This document shows, in pieces, positions 4,321 through 50,154 of a stretch of DNA of 64,000 nucleotides. The stretch comes from a phage. Every line of letters starts with the position of its first letter. The stretch's first letter is position 1. Below the pieces are notes generated by a model, which ran no database searches, was not told where the DNA came from, and was given only the letters and a program-made list of their open reading frames with translations. Location of the stretch: sequence record PZ386965.1. One strand, written 5' to 3'. The position numbers and the translations under genes were made by a program.

Positions 4321-7032
4321 TCAAAAATCGAACATATCGAACAGAGATGCTTTCTTCTCGTAATCGAGTTTCGCTGCTGATGTGAATCCTTCAAGTGGTT
4401 TAATAAATGTCTTCTCAAGGAGAACAGTGTAGTCCATCCAATGAAGTACGTCGTCTTTAATTAAATCTGTGATTTCAGTACCAGAAGGCCATGCGATACA
4501 TTTATCACCGAATGGGTTTCCTTCACGTAAAGGCAGAACATATACTTTTTCACCTTCTACAACTTGTGGAGCATCAATATTACCTTTGATAGCCCGGTTA
4601 TACGTCAGAATTCCACGAATATGGAACGGACATTTAGGGCCAGGGAATCCACCAACATCATATTTAGCAATGTTATTCGCAGAAGATACCGACGCGATGC
4701 TAATATAATTCAATTGACGGAATTCTTTTTCAAACTCTTTAAAATATTCTTGTAATGATTCTTCACCTTCTTGAAGCATACGACGAATACATTCCTTAAG
4801 AGCTTTCTGTACTGCTTTAGGAGTCGAAGATTTCTGAGTCTCGAGACCCATGATTTTGAGTTTAGGCTCAGCGTATCTGGTTCCTTCCATATCCCACACG
4901 TTTAATGCATAACGTTTCTTACCAGTCCAAAATCCGCCAATACCTTTAGAACCGAGCGGAGGGCCAGCAATAGCTTCTCGGTCCATGAACATTAAGTGTT
5001 GTTTATTGTTCATGTATTCACACATTTCACGGAAACCTCTATCAATAGCTGGTTCCATACGTTCACGTGCAAACTTATCTAAGAAGTCTACCCAATGGTT
5101 AGTATCACGGAATTTAGATTCACCAACCTTATCAATAATTTTATCTGCAGATACGTAAATAGAGTCTGTATCACCATAAAGAACGAAAGCTTCACCTTCT
5201 GTACCACAAACTTCATTCAGATATTCATTAACTTTACGTTCAATCCACTGTAAAGCCATTTGTCCGAATGTTGTGATTGCAGTAGCATTACGCAAATCAT
5301 AATAACGGAACCAGACGTTGCCAAGTGCACCATAAAGTGAGTTGATAAGCAATTTACGGTTAATTTGTGCAGTCATACCTGCAACTTCAGTACGTTGAGC
5401 TCTAAACAACATTTCATTAAGAGATTTAGCAGACAACTTTTTAATCTTTTCTTTAATCTCATCACTGAAGTCGAAACGATAATCAACATCTAATGGTTCG
5501 TCAACAGAAAGATTAGGATTATGCAATGCCTCTTTAATTATTTCACCGTTACGTTGAGCTGCAAGCATGTAACCTTTATGTTCTTTACGTTGATTAAAGA
5601 CCTTAGTGATTTCAGTTGGAACTACACCATCACGATCTTTATAATACATCATGCCGTTAGGAGAACAACTGTACACATCTGAAGGACGTTCAGCGATTGC
5701 GTTAATATAATCATGCAATGGAGCTACTTTAAACGTTCCTGCTATTGTTTCCGGGCTAATATTCACTTGGCGAATAATACTTGGATACAGAGATGTAAGG
5801 TCGAAACTCATTACATATTTGTATCGATTTGGAATAGGTTCCTTAACAAAAGCGCCAGGATAAGGTTGAACCGGGTGAGAACGACCTTGTGGAATCACCT
5901 TGTTCTGCTCTTTAAGGCTATTAAAAATAATAGCATCCCATGTTTTAATTGGGCTAAACACAGATTGAATCTGTATCTTAGCATAATAACCCATGTCCAA
6001 ACTCAAGTTGATGAACTGACGCTTAGCATCAATTTGCAATACACGATACACGTCGATAATGTTATAAGAAATATATCGTTGGTGATTGCTTTCACGAAGC
6101 TTAGAAATAGGGCCGTCATATTTCAGTTTACCAACGTTCAATTCAAATTCTGAAATGTAATCCAGAGAATACGACGGTTGATTGGTAAAAGAGAATTTTT
6201 TGTAAAGGTCGATATAATCAAGAACAGAGATACCGAACAATGTAATGATTTCACGAGAACCATACATGTTTTCGATAACTTTAACACGAGTTTTACGATG
6301 TGGTGATAAACGTTTCGCAGTAGATTCGCCAAAAATATTCTTGATTCTGTTATACACATATGGAATATCAAATGACTCAACGTTCCATCCAGTCAAAATG
6401 ACAGGAGTTTTCTGTTGCCAGAAGTTGAGATATTCCATCAACAATTCTTTTTCGTTATCGAACGGCATATAAATGATTTTATCGATAATTTCAGATGGAA
6501 CTTCATCACCACCTTGTTCTTGAAGCTTAGCCGCAATTTCGATAGACCATTCTTCTACATTACCATACGGAGAATTCAATAGATCAAATACGTAGAACCT
6601 GTCGTCAATTGAGTCATAATGGGTGATAGCATCAATCGGATGTTTTGCTTGTGACGGCTCAGGGAACCCATCCGGAGATGTTACTTCGATGTCGAAGTTA
6701 GCCACACGAATTTTTGTATGGTCGTATTTGATTTCATAGTTATAAGTGTCAGACAAATACGCCAATTTGAAATCGTCCATGCCAAGTGCTTCAAGTCCGA
6801 TATCTTCCATGCGTTTAATCCATTGGGAGGCATCACGCATATTAGCGAACAACTTACGAGTACACGGCTTACCGTAGATATCGAAATATTTCGTAGCCTG
6901 ACTTTCTGGACAATGAGCAAACAGTGATGGTTTATATTCTACTTCACGAGTACGTTCACGGCCATTAGAATCGATGTAACGTTCAAAAATTGAATCACCA
7001 ATCTGTTCAACCGTTAAGTAAAATTCTTTCAT
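4321..7032 (-). CDS. 43: DNA polymerase (family B, T4 gp43 type)
   Basis: 903 aa; exonuclease FDIEVTS and polymerase YGDTDS motifs; N-terminus MKEFYLTVEQIGDSIFERYID matches RB69/T4 gp43 as I recall it. Confidence 0.97.
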   Translation of the reverse strand: MKEFYLTVEQIGDSIFERYIDSNGRERTREVEYKPSLFAHCPESQATKYFDIYGKPCTRKLFANMRDASQWIKRMEDIGLEALGMDDFKLAYLSDTYNYEIKYDHTKIRVANFDIEVTSPDGFPEPSQAKHPIDAITHYDSIDDRFYVFDLLNSPYGNVEEWSIEIAAKLQEQGGDEVPSEIIDKIIYMPFDNEKELLMEYLNFWQQKTPVILTGWNVESFDIPYVYNRIKNIFGESTAKRLSPHRKTRVKVIENMYGSREIITLFGISVLDYIDLYKKFSFTNQPSYSLDYISEFELNVGKLKYDGPISKLRESNHQRYISYNIIDVYRVLQIDAKRQFINLSLDMGYYAKIQIQSVFSPIKTWDAIIFNSLKEQNKVIPQGRSHPVQPYPGAFVKEPIPNRYKYVMSFDLTSLYPSIIRQVNISPETIAGTFKVAPLHDYINAIAERPSDVYSCSPNGMMYYKDRDGVVPTEITKVFNQRKEHKGYMLAAQRNGEIIKEALHNPNLSVDEPLDVDYRFDFSDEIKEKIKKLSAKSLNEMLFRAQRTEVAGMTAQINRKLLINSLYGALGNVWFRYYDLRNATAITTFGQMALQWIERKVNEYLNEVCGTEGEAFVLYGDTDSIYVSADKIIDKVGESKFRDTNHWVDFLDKFARERMEPAIDRGFREMCEYMNNKQHLMFMDREAIAGPPLGSKGIGGFWTGKKRYALNVWDMEGTRYAEPKLKIMGLETQKSSTPKAVQKALKECIRRMLQEGEESLQEYFKEFEKEFRQLNYISIASVSSANNIAKYDVGGFPGPKCPFHIRGILTYNRAIKGNIDAPQVVEGEKVYVLPLREGNPFGDKCIAWPSGTEITDLIKDDVLHWMDYTVLLEKTFIKPLEGFTSAAKLDYEKKASLFDMFDF

Positions 7033-37212: not shown

Positions 37213-37426
37213 AAGGAATTTCCTCATCTGTGGCAAGGTCATATTCGACCAATTGGATAGGCTCATTAATACCATATCCACGTACAGTGATATCAGTTGT
37301 CGGATAGTTTCCAGTAATATCACCCATTCTAAATGCTTCAATGAATGATTGCTCGCCTGAGCAACTAAACCAGGCGGCAAAACATTTTAAAACATCTTCA
37401 GACCCTTCTATAATCAATTTAGTCAT
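37202..37426 (-). CDS. hypothetical protein (vs.x)
   Basis: 74-aa ORF. Confidence 0.45.
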   Translation of the reverse strand: MTKLIIEGSEDVLKCFAAWFSCSGEQSFIEAFRMGDITGNYPTTDITVRGYGINEPIQLVEYDLATDEEIPYVD

Positions 37427-37788
37427 TATAGACTCTCGGTAAAGGTACGAGCGATAACGTCGCGCTGCTGTTCCGGAGTCAGAGAGTTAAAGCGAACTGC
37501 ATAACCGGATACACGGATGGTCAGCTGCGGATATTTTTCCGGATGCTTAACTGCATCTTCCAGAGTTTCACGACGCAGAACGTTAACGTTCAGGTGCTGA
37601 CCACCTTCAATTTTAACTTTAGGTTGATGTTCAATTTCAATTTCACGAGCATTCAAACCGTAGAAAATTTCTGGATCTACAATAGCGTCTTCTTTAAAAG
37701 TCTTAGAGACAATAATCCGGGCTTGAGTACCGTCTTCAAAATAAATAGTGCCTTTATGTTCACCTTCAAGAATTTGATATGCTTTCAT
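37426..37788 (-). CDS. autonomous glycyl radical cofactor (GrcA/YfiD-like)
   Basis: C-terminal glycyl radical motif RVSGYAVRF in ...[60 protein letters not shown]. Confidence 0.9.
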
Positions 37789-37794
37789 ATAACC

Positions 37795-38103
37795 TCAATT
37801 AGAAAATAAATTTATCCAAGTTTTTTCTTTAATCAAAAATGGGTCGGAATTAAACGCCATTAAACTTTGGGTGATTAATCCTTTAAATGGCCCATCAATA
37901 AATTCCATTTTGAAATGCGGAATACTAGTCATCAACCGTGCATTAGGAGCGGTACAAAGAACCTGCTGCCCTGCGAACGGACCTTTAGTCAAACGGTATC
38001 GTTTAGGTTTAAAATGGTAAATCTCATAATTTTCTACAAGTGCCCTTTTATTGCATACTGGACTGTTATAACAATATTCAAAAACTTCAATAGTTGTCAT
38101 CAT
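37795..38103 (-). CDS. hypothetical protein (vs.x)
   Basis: ATGA-coupled start. Confidence 0.45.
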   Translation of the reverse strand: MMTTIEVFEYCYNSPVCNKRALVENYEIYHFKPKRYRLTKGPFAGQQVLCTAPNARLMTSIPHFKMEFIDGPFKGLITQSLMAFNSDPFLIKEKTWINLFSN

Positions 38104-38639
38104 TGCATTCCAATCACAAAAAATTGAGGACGAGCAATACCACCGATGCAATATTTGCTTTTGCAACAGTGTTGGACTGTTTTAATATGGATGTCGTAAA
38201 TCTTATCCATATCAGGAGCTTTAATAGGCTCGTCAATTATGTACAGAATACGAGAAAGTGTTAATCCACGGAATTTATGTCCTTCATTACCAATAAAACT
38301 ACGGACAGAATCAGTAAATAAACGGAATCGAATATCATCGCTAGAATATCGAGAAAATTCTTTTTCAATGTTGCCAGCAGAAATTTTAGCATAAGCTGAA
38401 GTATTAGAAAGAACAATAACCGTTCCGCCATCATACAACCAATTAGCAGCAAAATTAGTCACAGCAATTGATTTACCTGATTGTCGGCCGCCGTCTAAAC
38501 GAAGTGTACAGTACTGCTTGAGTACGTCTTCAAATGGTGGGACATAACCGTTCTTACAAATTTCTTCTACTCTAGCATCAGAATGGTGTGTAAAAGCATT
38601 CATCAGGGATAGATAAGGTCCAGTTAAAAATGTTCTCAT
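38100..38639 (-). CDS. P-loop-containing hypothetical protein (vs.x)
   Basis: GGRQSGKS Walker-A-like. Confidence 0.5.
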   Translation of the reverse strand: MRTFLTGPYLSLMNAFTHHSDARVEEICKNGYVPPFEDVLKQYCTLRLDGGRQSGKSIAVTNFAANWLYDGGTVIVLSNTSAYAKISAGNIEKEFSRYSSDDIRFRLFTDSVRSFIGNEGHKFRGLTLSRILYIIDEPIKAPDMDKIYDIHIKTVQHCCKSKYCIGGIARPQFFVIGMQ

Positions 38640-38811
38640 ATTATTTCTCTTAAGGTTTGGGCCATTCCGTGGCACATGTTAGGTCCTTCGACTCGCTATG
38701 TAAACCCATTACCGCATTGCGCTCGACCTTATTACAGGTTGGAAAAGGTACATCACTCAGAGGACTCGACGTTCATGAGGAGAGGTTGCGTTTCCCTTTA
38801 TTAGGCAAGAA

Positions 38812-39141
38812 TTATACTCTAGGCTTTTGAGCTTGTTTGGTATTGGATTCCCATGCGGCTTTGGTAATTTTGTTAGCGGCATAACCAAAGGCATTAGATA
38901 GAACACCTTTAGAGTTGAATACATCCAATCCAATAAGTACACCGGCTGCGTTAAATTTAGGAGCAAAGTACGCATTAGTTTTAGAAAGAGCTTTTTTCAA
39001 TTCAGGGTCTTGAACCAAGCCATCAAAAACGCCTTTACTATTTACTTTATATGTTACTTTGGGATTCTTACCTTCTTCGATAGCAGCTTTCTGTTCCGCA
39101 GATAATGTAACTTCAGTGATAAACTCCTGATATGTTTTCAT
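38812..39141 (-). CDS. internal head protein (capsid-targeting MKTYQEF N-terminus)
   Basis: MKTYQEFITE start like T4 IP capsid targeting sequence. Confidence 0.7.
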   Translation of the reverse strand: MKTYQEFITEVTLSAEQKAAIEEGKNPKVTYKVNSKGVFDGLVQDPELKKALSKTNAYFAPKFNAAGVLIGLDVFNSKGVLSNAFGYAANKITKAAWESNTKQAQKPRV

Positions 39142-39813: not shown

Positions 39814-40227
39814 TTAGTAAATTGATTTACCATAGTATTTGTACCAAGACGGCCGTTGAGCAATTTTTTCATCTAAGCGTGCTTGACTTATCGCAATGGA
39901 CGCTTCGGACGGGACGTAATTATTACGAAATTCTACAGGAATGTCGGAAATATCCTGGACAGTCGTGTCCTTGATTTTGAAACCACGTTTCAAGCATTCA
40001 GCGATTAGCTCGATTTGACGTAAACGTAAAAATTCGAGTTTGTCGTAAAAGAATGTTACGTGACCTGTGCCTAAGATAAATGTTGGAGAGATTTTAAAAT
40101 CCTTTACACGTTTACCGTTTTGAACATGTTTACGGACTGCACCAAATACGCGTGGTAATTCACGATACTCGGCCATAAGATGTTGGTCGGCCAGTTCAGA
40201 AACAAGTGTTAAATTGATACGGGTCAT
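39814..40227 (-). CDS. denV: pyrimidine dimer DNA glycosylase DenV (endonuclease V)
   Basis: [34 protein letters not shown] collinear with T4 DenV; 137 aa. Confidence 0.95.
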
Positions 40228-40230
40228 AAT

Positions 40231-40280
40231 TTCCTCCAAGTAGTTGATGAATGTATAGTATCAAAACTCTTGGAGGAAGT
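40231..40280 (-). promoter_or_regulatory. early promoter / stem-loop cassette
   Basis: TTCCTCCAAG..CTTGGAGGAA inverted repeat around -10, GTTTAC -35 on minus. Confidence 0.5.
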
Positions 40281-40285
40281 AAACA

Positions 40286-40567
40286 CTATTTTTCTGAAGC
40301 GCCTGAAATATATTTTTCAAGACGTTGTTTCATCAGCGAGCCGTTCTTAGCAATTTCTTCCGGTTTATCGCACATGCGCAACAATGCTTCAAGCTTAACG
40401 ATATCACTGGTACGTTCAAATTTGCGAGTATCTATCTTACTAGCAAGTTCAGAAATACGTGCTAATAGACTTTCAGCTTCAACCAAAGCTGCACCTAGCT
40501 TAGTTGCAAATGTGTCAGTAGCTTCGTTAAGAATAGATTCTGATAAAAATTCACTATATGTTTTCAT
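40286..40567 (-). CDS. internal head protein (capsid-targeting N-terminus)
   Basis: [10 protein letters not shown] start. Confidence 0.65.
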
Positions 40568-41052
40568 ATATACGCTTTCCAAGTTCCTGTTTTAAATGTT
40601 GAGATTACGCGTTTCGCTCGATTAGGTGTCTGACGATACCATTTAGATTGGGCTAGATTTACTGCCGCCTCGTCCCAACGTTTCTGTTGAAGCATACGAA
40701 GAGAATTAGTAAAACCGGCAACGCCTGCTACACCCATTTGGAAGACCATATTGATCAATGCACATCGACGAACCGCATCTAAAGAATCATATACCGGTTT
40801 AAGTTTAGCATTACCCAAGATTCCTCGAACGGCTTTATCAACGTCTTCATTAAATAGCTTTTCAGCCTCATCAAGGGTAATTGTACCGTTGCATTTACGA
40901 CCGATCATTCTGTCAAGTTCAGCTTTAGCTACGGCTAAAGACGGGTTCTTTGTTACTAAATGGCCTATGCCAATCGTCCAAAAGCCTTCAGTGTCTTTAT
41001 ATAAAGTCAGTCTAAGACCTTCGTCATTACGAAGCATTTCAAATATATTCAT
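40564..41052 (-). CDS. e: endolysin (T4 lysozyme)
   Basis: [32 protein letters not shown] with catalytic Glu/Asp/Thr positions as in T4 lysozyme. Confidence 0.96.
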
Positions 41053-41080
41053 AATACCTCCCACGTTTATAGGAGGTATT
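41053..41080 (-). promoter_or_regulatory. RBS-sequestering hairpin with embedded late-promoter-like TATAAACG upstream of e
   Basis: Minus RNA ACCUCC-UAUAAACGU-GGGAGGU-AUU-AUG: SD paired in stem. Confidence 0.6.
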
Positions 41081-49304: not shown

Positions 49305-49337
49305 AAAAAGCCCCAACCTTTCGGAAGGGGCTTTATA
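49305..49337 (-). terminator. rho-independent terminator
   Basis: AGCCCCTTCCGAAAGGTTGGGGCT hairpin followed by TTTTTTG on minus. Confidence 0.75.
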
Positions 49338-49339
49338 CC

Positions 49340-49634
49340 TTGTTGGGGTTTCCACCTACTAGGTAAGTGTTTGTACGAAACGCCGGGATTTGAACCCGGT
49401 TATTAAGTAGTTGACGCTACTCAATATTTTTAAAAGGCCATATCTCGACCATATCCGAACGTTCCGTCAAAAACGCTACTCGGCTTACGGCAAAGATATT
49501 TCCTCGAATCGTTAATTAGGTGCGCCGTTTCTGCTGTGATGTAAGGGGATATTAACAAATCGTAAAGATTTATTAAGACCAGTCCTTACTCAGGGAACAT
49601 CAGTCCGACGACTTGCCGGTAGCGACCCGGCTTC
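49340..49634 (-). ncRNA. candidate structured stable RNA region with tRNA-like T-arm
   Basis: ~300 nt non-coding, GC-rich; CCGGG-TTCAAAT-CCCGG T-arm-like hairpin at 49392..49410; no full cloverleaf found. Confidence 0.3.
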
Positions 49635-49979
49635 TTATTTTGGCATATCATCAATTTGCTCTCGACGCCGACGCCATAGATTAATCGCTTCATAAACACA
49701 TTCAGCATTTGGTATATGGCGACAATAGTATAGTGATTCGCGTTTCTGGAACCGATGTTGTAATGGAATTTCGTTTAAAAGGTCTTTACGGTCAAAGTAT
49801 TCAAAACTAGTTAACCCGGAACGGTTTTTAAGAAACTTCCAATGTCCGAATTCATTTTTAAAATAAACGTAATCAGCGTGTTGATATAACGAATTAATCA
49901 ACCGGTCGGAAATAACTGTATCTTGTTCGTTAAAATAAAACGTTAAATCATGAACTACTAAGTAAACATTACCTTTCAT
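49635..49979 (-). CDS. hypothetical protein adjacent to tRNA genes
   Basis: ATG with GAGGAAAA RBS; track ORF trimmed because its 5' end overlaps tRNA-Arg. Confidence 0.5.
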   Translation of the reverse strand: MKGNVYLVVHDLTFYFNEQDTVISDRLINSLYQHADYVYFKNEFGHWKFLKNRSGLTSFEYFDRKDLLNEIPLQHRFQKRESLYYCRHIPNAECVYEAINLWRRRREQIDDMPK

Positions 49980-49997
49980 ATTTTCCTCACTTAAAGT

Positions 49998-50074
<77 letters not shown>

Positions 50075-50080
50075 AATATA

Positions 50081-50154
50081 TGACCCAGACCAGATTCGAA
50101 CTGGTAACCTTTCCCTTATGAGGGGACTGCTGCTAACCATTGAGCTACAGGGCC
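50081..50154 (-). tRNA. tRNA with CAU anticodon (Met or lysidine-Ile)
   Basis: Hand-folded: D-arm TAGCTCAATGGTTAGC, anticodon loop CTCATAA, T-arm ACCAG-TTCGAAT-CTGGT, acceptor with one mismatch. Confidence 0.7.

What the first reader, a model, noticed from the sequence alone, without database searches (positions are those of the whole stretch)
38640..38800. Short GC-rich intergenic island between vs.8-like gene and the internal-protein cluster
About 150 bp (roughly 38640..38790) is far more GC-rich than surrounding phage DNA (for example GGGCCATTCCGTGGCACATG...GCATTGCGCTCGACC) and has no ATG-initiated ORF on either strand. Its composition resembles host DNA or a structured RNA. It could be a fragment of acquired host sequence, a small RNA or a degraded mobile element.
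Basis: seen in the sequence. Interest (0 to 1): 0.4.

Follow-up and report, generated by a model that had tools for sequence, protein, structure and literature searches.

The report
New conserved structured phage RNA
The GC-richer gap upstream of gene vs.8 is not host DNA: it is a single-copy, strongly conserved, pseudoknotted RNA element shared by T4-like, rV5-like and N4-like phages, often beside their tRNA genes, that matches no curated RNA family and whose function is unknown.

Summary
The window is an RB69-like (Mosigvirus) phage. The flagged gap lies between an internal-protein-like ORF and vs.8, and all genes here are on the minus strand. GC is raised but not extreme: 46.6% against 37.1%, in the top 1% of windows.

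The composition matters less than the conservation. A 141-nt element (38799→38659, minus strand) is 80-88% identical in T4-like genera whose Vs.8 proteins are only 33-45% identical. It has no E. coli match, no tRNA prediction and no Rfam hit.

Alignments support a gene-sense RNA fold: a long stem, a pseudoknot, a three-way-junction core with about 16 invariant bases, and a terminal hairpin. In 21 T4-like sequences 95% of cells pair, against 24-47% in slid controls, and 12 pairs show compensatory changes.

The 45-nt core also occurs in Vequintavirus, an N4-like Klebsiella phage and uncultured phages. There it usually sits on the same strand as nearby tRNA genes, once with its own promoter.

My best reading is a new family of structured phage RNA, probably released as a small stable RNA that binds a conserved partner. 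The RNA-level identity is well supported. The function is inferred. In T4 the annotated vs.8 start overlaps the element and is probably wrong.

The parts
38659..38799 (-). Whole conserved RNA element, 141 nt (nt 1 = 38799; nt n = 38800-n): AAAGGG...GGCCC
   Evidence: Conserved in about 940 phage records. Boundaries come from alignment A1. The structure model is 95.0% paired with 12 compensatory pairs.
38744..38799 (-). Stem A (nt 1-56): outer helix H1 (1-5/52-56), middle helix H1' (14-18/46-50), apical helix H3 (21-24/41-44)
   Evidence: H1 pair 5:52 occurs as GC, CG and AU. H1' pair 14:50 is CG in 11 sequences and AU in 9. H1' was found independently by RNAalifold.
38788..38791 (-). Pseudoknot 5' strand (nt 9-12, ACGC), in the internal loop of Stem A
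   Evidence: It pairs with nt 104-107. All four pairs show changes on both sides (CG, AU, GC, UA, GU) and 91.7% of cells pair. RNAalifold predicts the same helix.
38701..38745 (-). Three-way-junction core shared with unrelated phages: closing helix Pb (60:92, G93 bulged, 59:94, 58:95) enclosing hairpins hp1 and hp2
   Evidence: The covariance model R1 gives 63.6 bits (E 1.8e-17) here; the next best hit in 64 kb scores 11 bits. Across 36 sequences from several phage families, core pairs are 95.8% paired and the three best Pb pairs are paired in 36 of 36 with 3-5 pair types.
38726..38739 (-). hp1: A-CCU / AGG-U stem with loop GUAAUA (nearly invariant CCUGURAHAAGG)
   Evidence: These columns are invariant in A2. 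The closing pair covaries as AU, GC and CG.
38714..38722 (-). hp2: short GC/GC hairpin with a variable loop
   Evidence: Pair 25:32 of A2 occurs as CG 25, UA 8 and GC 2.
38709..38713 (-). Invariant junction strand GGUAA
   Evidence: Invariant or nearly invariant in all 36 core sequences.
38693..38696 (-). Pseudoknot 3' strand (nt 104-107, GCGA)
38683..38688 (-). Conserved A(A/U)GGA(C/U) segment in the T4-like-specific 3' domain
   Evidence: G114, G115 and A116 are invariant in A1. Its role was not determined.
38661..38673 (-). Terminal hairpin GCCA-CGGAA-UGGC with a GGA-containing loop
   Evidence: Pair 149:159 of A1 occurs as CG, GC and UA, and 95.2% of cells pair.
38100..38639 (-). Flanking gene vs.8 (P-loop protein of unknown function); conserved start ATG at 38639-38637
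   Evidence: PHROG 1488 at 5.7e-78, with no Pfam hit.
38812..39141 (-). Flanking upstream ORF (RB69ORF123c-like, internal-protein-like); stop codon at 38814-38812

Best explanation
The region encodes a structured RNA domain of a family not yet curated. It is read from the same strand as the surrounding early genes.

Shown: it is single-copy and far better conserved than its flanking genes. It folds, with covariation support, into four parts. These are a long stem (Stem A); a pseudoknot between the stem's internal loop and a downstream segment; a three-way-junction core with about 16 invariant bases (CCUGURAHAAGG-NC-N-AG-hairpin-C-GGUAA); and, in T4-like phages only, a 3' extension ending in a hairpin with a GGA loop.

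Inferred: it works as RNA, not as DNA or protein. The minimal unit of about 100-110 nt (Stem A, core and pseudoknot strand) is probably released from the polycistronic transcript as a small stable RNA. This is the same route as the tRNAs it accompanies in other phages, and as T4's RNA C and RNA D. The RNA would then act by presenting its invariant junction to a conserved partner, either a host or a widely shared phage factor, plausibly linked to tRNA or translation. I put about 0.9 on 'conserved structured RNA element'. The figure below is for the stand-alone, partner-binding mechanism.
For: Conservation:
- blastn finds the element in 941 phage records, including T4, Klebsiella, Erwinia, Serratia, Enterobacter and Yersinia phages.
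- It is 80-88% identical in genera whose Vs.8 proteins are only 33-45% identical to the window's.

Not coding:
- The window has stops in all three sense frames.
- One-base indels lie inside conserved blocks.
- T4's open frame reads the conserved blocks in a different frame relation.

Structure in T4-like phages: 33 pairs in 8 helices are 95.0% paired, against 24-47% when partners are slid. Twelve pairs have compensatory changes, against 5.3±1.1 in shuffles (0 of 500). The covariation score is 0.227 against 0.067. RNAalifold independently recovers the long-range helix and H1'.

Core across phage families: 95.8% paired, covariation 0.513 against 0.134 (0 of 500), and slid controls at or below 0.08.

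Strand: in the core alignment 13 cells are G.U or U.G and only 1 is A.C or C.A.

Copy number: one copy in the window, 63.6 bits against 11 bits for the next hit.

Evidence for stand-alone use elsewhere:
- In a Vequintavirus-like contig the element follows a TTGACA-17-TATACT promoter and precedes the next promoter.
- In L084 it lies between a tRNA-Ser and an intrinsic terminator.
- In L067 the core starts 53 nt after a tRNA-Glu.
- In L069 the core ends 27 nt before a tRNA-Thr.
- 21 of 32 non-T4 instances have a same-strand tRNA within 700 nt, against 10% of positions in the same loci.

Independence from vs.8 and denV: no homologue of either lies near the non-T4 copies.
Against: - No transcript-end, abundance or stability data were available, so release as a discrete RNA in T4-like phages is inferred only by analogy.
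- In the window there is no convincing promoter or terminator of its own. One weak promoter-like site was found, no terminator, and the count is no higher than in shuffles.
- The minimum free energy of the single sequence is worse than for shuffles (z = +1.86 on the sense strand). The fold therefore rests on comparative evidence only.
- The structure was derived from the same sequences on which it was counted, and many of those sequences are related. This inflates shuffle-based measures.
- The three inner hp1 pairs never vary, so they are uninformative.
- Outside the T4-like group the pseudoknot is only suggestive. A naive per-sequence search for complementary stretches was not significant.
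- No partner has been identified.
Confidence: 0.5

Rival explanations
1. It is a cis-acting element of the polycistronic early mRNA. In this reading it is a folded punctuation mark that directs or blocks RNase action (RNase E, RNase III or exonucleases), stabilises the flanking messages, or tunes translation of the gene that follows (vs.8, or an internal-protein gene in Jiaodavirus).
For: In every T4-like genome examined the element sits between two same-strand ORFs and ends 15-40 nt before the next start codon. No promoter or terminator of its own is evident in the window. The T4-like-specific 3' extension, with two GGA-containing loops, lies next to the ribosome-binding site.
Against: The downstream gene is not constant: it is vs.8 in most genera and an internal-protein gene in PKO111. 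The same core occurs where no ORF follows. Examples are between two promoters, between a tRNA and a terminator, and directly abutting tRNAs. A generic nuclease barrier would not need about 16 invariant junction bases conserved across three phage lineages.
Confidence: 0.2
2. It is a self-cleaving ribozyme of an undescribed class that cuts phage polycistronic or tRNA-operon transcripts.
For: The fold is compact and pseudoknotted, with a small set of invariant junction nucleotides, as is typical of small ribozymes. The order of helix strands (H1, pseudoknot, apical hairpin, H1', junction helix, pseudoknot') is the same as in HDV-like ribozymes. This is my own reading. The element is close to tRNA genes in other phages.
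Against: No Rfam ribozyme model matches, even at E ≤ 10. The L071 subfamily has a GNRA tetraloop where an HDV-like ribozyme needs its L3 loop and P1.1, and there is no joining strand with a candidate catalytic C between the junction helix and the pseudoknot. Where the element abuts tRNAs, ordinary tRNA processing would release it without self-cleavage. No cleavage assay was possible.
Confidence: 0.1
3. It is a ligand-binding aptamer, either a riboswitch for the downstream gene or a free RNA that binds a small molecule.
For: The invariant three-way junction plus pseudoknot resembles aptamer architecture. A 2010 review noted that no riboswitch had been found in T4 and that genomes of relatives might reveal candidates (PMC3014915).
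Against: There is no expression platform: no terminator was found, and the conserved fold does not overlap the ribosome-binding site. The downstream context is not constant, and many copies are not upstream of any ORF. No Rfam riboswitch matches.
Confidence: 0.08
4. It is a DNA-level signal: an early promoter, a PeSL-type promoter/stem-loop recombination cassette, or another protein-binding site.
For: A promoter-like TTTACA-17-TAACAT lies inside the element (38704→38676). T4-type PeSL promoters have the consensus TTTACW-N17-TAYWAT and lie in plastic regions such as this one (PMC4122927). The gene content between denV and vs.8 varies among relatives.
Against: The -10-like hexamer is not conserved among homologues, as seen by inspection. 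PeSLs are short multi-copy cassettes, whereas this element is 141 nt and single-copy. Compensatory changes in eight helices, including a pseudoknot, together with the excess of G.U over A.C pairs, point to a folded sense-strand RNA. The core also occurs in phages without this -35-like sequence.
Confidence: 0.05
5. It is protein-coding: either an N-terminal extension of Vs.8, as annotated in T4, or a small ORF on one of the strands.
For: T4's record annotates vs.8 from 64912, which covers the element, and that frame is open in T4. The window has a 42-aa ATG ORF and a 57-aa TTG ORF on the plus strand.
Against: In the window the vs.8 frame has two stops inside the element, and all three sense frames have stops. 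The conserved blocks are read in different frame relations in T4 and in the window. One-base indels separate close relatives, for example the window and L055. RB69 and Ac3 annotators start vs.8 downstream of the element. The Vs.8 N-terminus aligns from the downstream ATG in all genera.
Confidence: 0.02

Closest known systems
T4 RNA C and RNA D (species 1 and 2 stable RNAs, rnaC/rnaD)
   Same: All are small phage-encoded RNAs without a known function, transcribed with tRNA genes and released by processing. In non-T4 phages the new element occupies the same kind of position, inside or beside tRNA arrays on the same strand (PMC3014915).
   Different: Inspection shows no sequence resemblance. In the window, rnaD- and rnaC-like genes lie about 11 kb away at roughly 49372-49634, whereas the element lies between protein genes. 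The new element is shared across Straboviridae, Vequintavirinae and Schitoviridae.
HDV-like self-cleaving ribozymes, including phage tRNA-associated variants (the latter from my own recollection, not checked here)
   Same: The order of helix strands along the chain is the same nested double-pseudoknot order (outer helix, pseudoknot strand, apical hairpin, outer helix, peripheral domain, pseudoknot strand). Both occur in phages near tRNAs.
   Different: No HDV or other ribozyme model matches at E ≤ 10. The apical loop can be a GNRA tetraloop, so L3 and P1.1 are missing. There is no joining strand with a catalytic C. Conservation is concentrated in what would be the dispensable P4 domain.
PeSL (promoter-early stem-loop) cassettes of T4-type phages
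   Same: Both are conserved non-coding sequences in hyperplastic regions of T4-like genomes, and both contain a TTTACA -35-like motif.
   Different: PeSLs are short, multi-copy promoter/terminator cassettes. This element is single-copy, 141 nt, has a covarying pseudoknotted fold, has no conserved -10 and no terminator, and shares its core with non-T4 phages.
ROOL and GOLLD large ornate RNAs
   Same: These are also structured RNAs of unknown function. My recollection is that they are frequent in phages and often lie next to tRNA genes; the paper held here covers only their cryo-EM oligomers (PMC12286853, listed).
   Different: They are about 580-800 nt and are in Rfam. The element is about 105-140 nt and matches no Rfam model.
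T4 translational operators such as the gene 32 pseudoknot and the RegA/gp43 operators
   Same: These are structured or pseudoknotted RNA segments located just upstream of a T4 gene.
   Different: They are bound by the product of the regulated gene and are tied to that gene. This element is independent of the identity of the downstream gene and also occurs away from ORFs.

Membership tests
Any curated Rfam family (release 15) | A covariance-model score at or above the family's gathering threshold | tested here: not met
   Only two tRNAs reach threshold in the 64-kb window. With permissive filters on 38400-39000, only four chance-level hits to eukaryotic lncRNA and snoRNA models appear, at E 0.9-9.3. 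There is no hit at the motif in nine other loci.
tRNA / tmRNA / tRNA-like gene | A cloverleaf detectable by ARAGORN or the Rfam tRNA model | tested here: not met
   ARAGORN finds only tRNA-Arg and tRNA-Met at 49998-50154. The Rfam tRNA model gives no hit in the region.
HDV-like ribozyme | Nested double-pseudoknot strand order (P1, P2, P3, P1', P4, P2') | tested here: inconclusive
   The strand order H1, PK, H3, H1, Pb, PK agrees. Topology alone does not define the family.
HDV-like ribozyme | An L3 loop forming P1.1, and a joining strand J4/2 carrying the catalytic cytosine | tested here: not met
   The apical loop is GAAA or GCAA in the L071/L078 subfamily. The pseudoknot 3' strand follows the junction helix directly or after a conserved U-rich linker that has no conserved C.
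PeSL cassette | Many copies per genome, flanking variable ORFs | tested here: not met
   The core model finds one hit in 64 kb (63.6 bits), and the next best scores 11 bits.
PeSL cassette | An early promoter TTTACW-N17-TAYWAT followed or preceded by a simple stem-loop terminator | tested here: not met
   TTTACA-17-TAACAT is present in the window, but the -10 part is not conserved in homologues. No terminator-like site was found. The consensus comes from PMC4122927.
Riboswitch | An aptamer coupled to an expression platform (terminator, or sequestration of the ribosome-binding site) upstream of a consistent gene class | tested here: not met
   No terminator was found. The downstream gene varies. 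Many copies are not upstream of an ORF.
Riboswitch | Specific ligand binding | not testable with these tools
   This needs in-line probing or ITC.
T4 rnaC/rnaD stable RNAs | Sequence homology to T4 species 1 or species 2 RNA | tested here: not met
   Inspection of the T4 rnaC/rnaD sequences and their window homologues shows no resemblance to the element. No formal alignment was run.
T4 rnaC/rnaD stable RNAs | A discrete stable species processed from a tRNA-operon transcript | not testable with these tools
   Context is compatible in non-T4 phages, but no RNA data are available.
Protein-coding sequence (Vs.8 N-terminal extension) | An open, frame-conserved reading frame in homologues | tested here: not met
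   There are stops in all sense frames in the window, frame relations differ from T4, and 1-nt indels occur within conserved blocks.
Host-derived DNA | Similarity to host chromosomes | tested here: not met
   No blastn match in 20,395 E. coli records. The pattern occurs in 2 MAG contigs of 185,579 species genomes; one scores only a 24-bit partial core hit and the other gives no hit.

The most novel reading that the evidence does not exclude
The element is the founding example of a new functional RNA class used by virulent phages of Enterobacterales from at least three unrelated lineages, including T4. It could be a new self-cleaving ribozyme. Alternatively it could be a decoy or adaptor RNA whose invariant three-way junction binds a host component of tRNA or translation metabolism, or a tRNA-directed defence nuclease. 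Either would explain why it travels with phage tRNA arrays.
Probability: 0.3. Interest if true: 0.85.

Novelty: new variant of a known kind. Interest (0 to 1): 0.7.

Why it matters
T4 and RB69 are among the best-studied viruses. A 2010 review still stated that no riboswitch or trans-acting regulatory RNA had been characterised in T4, and that RNA C and RNA D had no known role (PMC3014915).

Here is a compact RNA domain supported by covariation, present in T4 itself and hidden under a probably mis-set vs.8 start. It is more conserved than its neighbouring proteins. Its core is also shared with rV5-like and N4-like phages, where it accompanies tRNA genes.

That distribution argues for an interaction with something common to these infections. 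The question is directly testable with T4 genetics: deletion, compensatory mutants, Northern blots and pull-downs.

In practical terms, the finding gives annotators a model for an unannotated feature in roughly a thousand deposited phage genomes. It also corrects gene starts that overlap the element.

Tried and rejected
- **Host origin.** blastn against all complete E. coli genomes found nothing. The genome-collection pattern scan gave two MAG contigs that do not score as members.
- **Known RNA families.** Rfam at gathering and at permissive thresholds, and ARAGORN, found nothing.
- **Thermodynamic stability.** z = +1.86 on the sense strand and +1.09 on the antisense strand, which is less stable than shuffles. 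This is uninformative or negative, so the case rests on comparative data.
- **Relationship to T4 rnaC/rnaD.** I fetched and compared them and saw no similarity.
- **Coding hypotheses.** Rejected because of stops, frame shifts and 1-nt indels.
- **First pseudoknot guess (AAAC/GUUU next to the junction helix).** Abandoned in favour of nt 9-12/104-107, which covaries and which RNAalifold also finds.
- **First two registers for the junction helix.** Each was partly right. The cross-family alignment showed a bulged base after the first pair.
- **A local two-pair helix (nt 107-108/118-119).** Only 70% paired, so I dropped it.
- **Cross-family pseudoknot by naive complementarity search.** Not significant per sequence.
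- **Linkage to Vs.8.** No vs.8 or denV homologue lies near non-T4 copies. Vs.8 has no informative family.
- **PeSL identity.** Rejected.
- **hp1 as an anticodon-loop mimic (CUGUAAU against tRNA-Tyr CUGUAAA).** The covarying closing pair fixes a 6-nt loop, so the resemblance does not survive.
- **Literature.** Searches by gene names, by the core sequence itself and by topic found no description. The catalogue of about 10,000 unnamed viral RNA candidates (PMC10690425) could contain it, but its tables are not held.

Full report
**Setting.** The window is an RB69-like Mosigvirus. The 4 kb around the finding is 97-98% identical to RB69 and its relatives. All genes here run on the minus strand:

| Gene | Coordinates |
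|---|---|
| e lysozyme | 40564-41064 |
| denV | 39814-40239 |
| three small internal-protein-like ORFs | between denV and the gap |
| the flagged gap | about 38640-38811 |
| vs.8 | 38100-38639 |
| vs.7, vs.6 and onwards, ending with regB | below 38103 |

RB69's own record leaves the gap unannotated, between vs.8 and RB69ORF123c.

**The observation.** The quoted strings are there. GC of 38640-38800 is 0.466, against 0.371 for the window (sd 0.039 for windows of that size). That is z = 2.44, in the top 1.0%. The conserved element itself is 0.504. The enrichment is therefore real but moderate, and other, mostly coding, stretches match it. The claim of no ATG ORF is not accurate. A 42-aa ATG ORF lies at 38676..38804 on the plus strand, and the vs.8 frame is open to a GTG at 38675. 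None of these frames is conserved, as shown below.

**What it is not.**
- There is no blastn match in 5,426 complete E. coli genomes.
- A degenerate core pattern hits only two MAG contigs among 185,579 species genomes. Of these, L065 scores only a 24-bit partial match and L066 gives no match with the core model.
- ARAGORN finds only tRNA-Arg and tRNA-Met, 11 kb away.
- Rfam 15 gives nothing at gathering thresholds and only chance-level hits at E ≤ 10.
- The single-sequence folding energy is worse than for shuffled sequence on both strands. A thermodynamic screen would therefore have dismissed the region.

**Conservation.** The 164-nt gap finds 941 phage records by blastn. Klebsiella (Jiaodavirus), Erwinia (Roskildevirus), Gaprivervirus and others align over about 90% of it at 80-89% identity. 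T4 and other Tequatrovirus align over its 3' 60% at 77-83%. Karamvirus and Winklervirus align over its 5' part.

In the same genomes, Vs.8 is only 33-45% identical in protein sequence to the window's Vs.8. The non-coding stretch is thus far better conserved than the adjacent gene.

In T4 the element (64807-64898 and upstream) lies inside the annotated vs.8 ORF, which the record starts at 64912. That frame is open in T4. The window, however, has two stops in the corresponding frame and stops in all three sense frames. The conserved blocks are read in different frame relations in the two phages. Close relatives differ by 1-nt indels inside conserved blocks. Annotators of RB69 and Ac3 start vs.8 downstream of the element. 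The conservation is therefore not protein-coding, and the T4 vs.8 start is probably mis-set.

**Structure in T4-like phages.** I aligned 21 distinct long-form sequences (A1). Inspection, supplemented by RNAalifold, gave the model below. Window nucleotide n corresponds to coordinate 38800-n.

| Helix | Window nucleotides |
|---|---|
| H1 | 1-5 / 52-56 |
| Pseudoknot | 9-12 / 104-107 |
| H1' | 14-18 / 46-50 |
| H3 | 21-24 / 41-44 |
| Junction helix Pb | 60:92, bulged G93, 59:94, 58:95 |
| hp1 | 61-64 / 71-74, loop GUAAUA |
| hp2 | 78-79 / 85-86 |
| Short helix | 100-102 / 123-125 |
| Terminal hairpin | 127-130 / 136-139, loop CGGAA |

Counted on A1, 95.0% of 680 cells are standard pairs, against 24-47% when the 3' partners are slid by 1-3 columns. 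Twelve of 33 pairs have changes on both sides, against 5.3±1.1 in shuffles (0 of 500). The covariation score is 0.227 against 0.067.

All four pairs of the pseudoknot show compensatory types: CCG/CGG, CGC/GCG, CAC/GUG, CCA/UGG, CUCG/CGAG and CCUG/CAGG. RNAalifold cannot predict pseudoknots, yet it independently chose this long-range helix, plus H1' (pair 14:50 is CG in 11 and AU in 9) and the three hairpins.

Three caveats apply. The model was derived from these sequences. The sequences are related, which inflates the shuffle control. Several pairs never vary and so carry no information.

**The core is shared with unrelated phages.** Two pattern scans of IMG/VR returned many T4-like contigs. 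They also returned about 30 contigs that are not T4-like and have no vs.8 or denV homologue. BLAST placed two of these groups in named phages. One is Vequintavirus (rV5-like; bov10K2 and phita32). The other is the N4-like Klebsiella phage KpCHEMY26 (Schitoviridae). Other groups have no isolate match, and one contig is 360 kb.

Only about 45 nt are shared:

`Pb-5' / N-CCUGURAHAAGG-N' / C(N)A / short hairpin / GGUAA-N-(G) / Pb-3'`

In a 36-sequence alignment (A2), 16 columns are invariant. I tested two registers for the closing helix. Each had some columns paired in 36 of 36 sequences. That pattern revealed a first pair, then a bulged base (usually G), then the rest of the helix.

With that structure, 95.8% of cells pair. 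The covariation score is 0.513, against 0.134 in shuffles (0 of 500) and at most 0.08 in slid controls. Three closing-helix pairs are paired in all 36 sequences with 3-5 pair types each. G.U or U.G cells outnumber A.C or C.A cells 13 to 1 in the core, and 27 to 17 in A1. This identifies the gene-sense strand as the folded one.

A covariance model of the core finds exactly one copy in the window, at 38701-38745 on the minus strand (63.6 bits, E 1.8e-17). The next hit scores 11 bits. The model scores all family members at 47-67 bits.

Upstream of the core, every subfamily has its own Stem A. Within subfamilies the stem covaries: GCGU/ACGC, GCAA/UUGC and GUGC/GCAC; CAUG-GAAA-CAUG and CAUC-GAAA-GAUG; and in Tequatrovirus GGGAA/UUCCC and GGGAG/CUCCC.

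An internal-loop or apical-loop segment of Stem A is complementary to the segment just after the core: GGGUA/UACCC against GGGAG/CUCCC, GCCAG/CUGGU, and CGGA/UCCG. This suggests the pseudoknot is general. A naive per-sequence complementarity search is not significant, although it picks the same geometry in six contigs. I rate the cross-family pseudoknot as suggestive only.

**Context outside T4-like phages.**
- In a Vequintavirus-like contig the element starts a few bases after a perfect TTGACA-17-TATACT promoter. About 190 nt later comes the next promoter, then an ORF, then tRNA-Arg and tRNA-Tyr.
- In N4-like relatives it is one module of a non-coding leader of about 850 nt that runs from a promoter into four tRNAs.
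- In L084 it lies between tRNA-Ser and an intrinsic terminator.
- In L067 the core starts 53 nt after tRNA-Glu.
- In L069 the core ends 27 nt before tRNA-Thr.

Overall, 21 of 32 non-T4 instances have a same-strand tRNA within 700 nt, against 10% of strand-positions in those same loci. No nearest tRNA is on the other strand. These instances collapse to roughly nine independent lineages.

The positions give natural ends for a unit of about 100-110 nt (Stem A, core and pseudoknot strand) that ordinary tRNA processing would release. T4-like phages add a 3' extension, and Karamvirus carries two tandem copies. In the window no own promoter or terminator is evident. There is one weak TTTACA-17-TAACAT site whose -10 part is not conserved, and no terminator.

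**Interpretation.** It is well supported (about 0.9) that this is a conserved, single-copy, gene-sense structured RNA domain of a family absent from Rfam. How it works is inferred.

I favour (about 0.5) a small stable RNA released from the transcript that acts through its invariant junction on a conserved partner. Four observations support this. The same core is used where no ORF follows. It is embedded among tRNA processing sites. It is independent of the neighbouring proteins. It keeps about 16 invariant bases across three phage lineages that share hosts (Enterobacterales) rather than ancestry.

The rivals are:
- a cis-acting processing, stability or translation element (about 0.2);
- a new self-cleaving ribozyme (about 0.1). 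The helix order matches HDV-like ribozymes, but the L3/P1.1 and catalytic-C features are absent;
- a ligand-binding aptamer (about 0.08), although no expression platform is present;
- a DNA-level promoter or PeSL (about 0.05), contradicted by copy number, covariation and G.U bias (PeSL features from PMC4122927);
- coding sequence (about 0.02).

**Comparison with the known, and novelty.** The nearest biological analogues are T4 RNA C and RNA D. These are stable RNAs of unknown role from the tRNA region (PMC3014915; PMC9697503). They are unrelated in sequence, and their homologues sit elsewhere in this window.

Searching the literature for the core sequence and for related topics found no description. 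A 2023 catalogue of 10,006 unnamed viral RNA candidates (PMC10690425) might include it, but I could not check because its tables are not held.

I therefore class it as a new family within a known general kind: phage structured RNAs of unknown function that travel with tRNA genes. There is a substantial chance that its mechanism is itself new.

Noticed in passing
window about 49372-49634 (minus strand): Homologues of T4 rnaD (about 49634-49518) and rnaC (about 49516-49372) lie downstream of tRNA-Met and tRNA-Arg (49998-50154) and an intervening ORF (49635-50027). An intrinsic-terminator-like hairpin follows at about 49305-49335. Rfam reports nothing for them.
   Followed up: partly
L002 (T4 NC_000866.4) 64792-64912; window 38640-38675: T4's annotated vs.8 start (64912) makes the ORF cover the conserved RNA element. 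The conserved Vs.8 N-terminus (MRTFLTGPYLSLMNAF / MK(Y/F)LTPIYLTLMHAF) begins at the downstream ATG in all genera, so the T4 start is probably about 120 nt too far upstream.
   Followed up: partly
L006 (Aeromonas phage PS49), L010, L036, L040: Karamvirus genomes carry two tandem copies of the element. Copy 1 lacks the usual 3' domain and ends in an extra hairpin. Copy 2 has a shortened Stem A. SonariX-type relatives have only copy 1 fused to the 3' domain.
   Followed up: partly
L029, L053 (IMG/VR T4-like contigs): A roughly 40-nt insertion (GGCAAGGAGCCCAAUUCGAUUCUAGGAAGGAAA) interrupts the 3' domain just after the pseudoknot 3' strand. The rest of the element is intact.
   Followed up: no
L019 reverse strand, about 5860-6720 (N4-like relatives; also L026, L038, L047): A non-coding leader of about 850 nt runs from a TTGACA...TAGATT promoter into four tRNAs. 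It is built of several modules bounded by a repeated ACAACAGGTAA(G/T)(A/G)GCAT motif and closed by long-range stems. The element is only one module, and the others look like further unannotated structured RNAs.
   Followed up: no
L077 about 100-180 nt downstream of its element copy: A diverged second copy keeps a short Stem A-like segment (GGACCCCGACCCUCUUAAUAAUGGGCCUUCC). In place of hp1 it has a different hairpin (ACCUUAAUCUUAAUUAAGGU).
   Followed up: no
L052 3115-3418 (+) and L033 7609-7894 (-): Group I introns (Rfam RF00028, 81 and 68 bits) lie a few kb from the element in two non-T4 phage contigs.
   Followed up: no
window 38676-38704 (minus strand): An early-promoter-like site TTTACA-17-TAACAT lies inside the RNA element. 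The -35-like GGUUUACAU is conserved in long-form T4-like copies, but the -10-like part is not.
   Followed up: partly
window 38661-38688 (minus strand): The T4-like 3' domain presents two conserved GGA motifs, A(A/U)GGA(C/U) and a hairpin loop A(A/C/U)GGAA, about 20 nt apart. In Gaprivervirus the first reads AUACAUGGAUGA. From memory this resembles CsrA-type GGA-loop binding sites. I did not test this.
   Followed up: no
window 37426-37788 (minus strand): vs.6 is annotated in RefSeq relatives as an autonomous glycyl radical cofactor (GrcA-like), which is an unusual auxiliary gene for this early region.
   Followed up: no
searches hit lists: Several records named 'Campylobacter phage' (for example A116, 59.5 kb, unannotated) carry the Vequintavirus-type element. 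They may be mislabelled or partial rV5-like coliphage assemblies from poultry samples.
   Followed up: no
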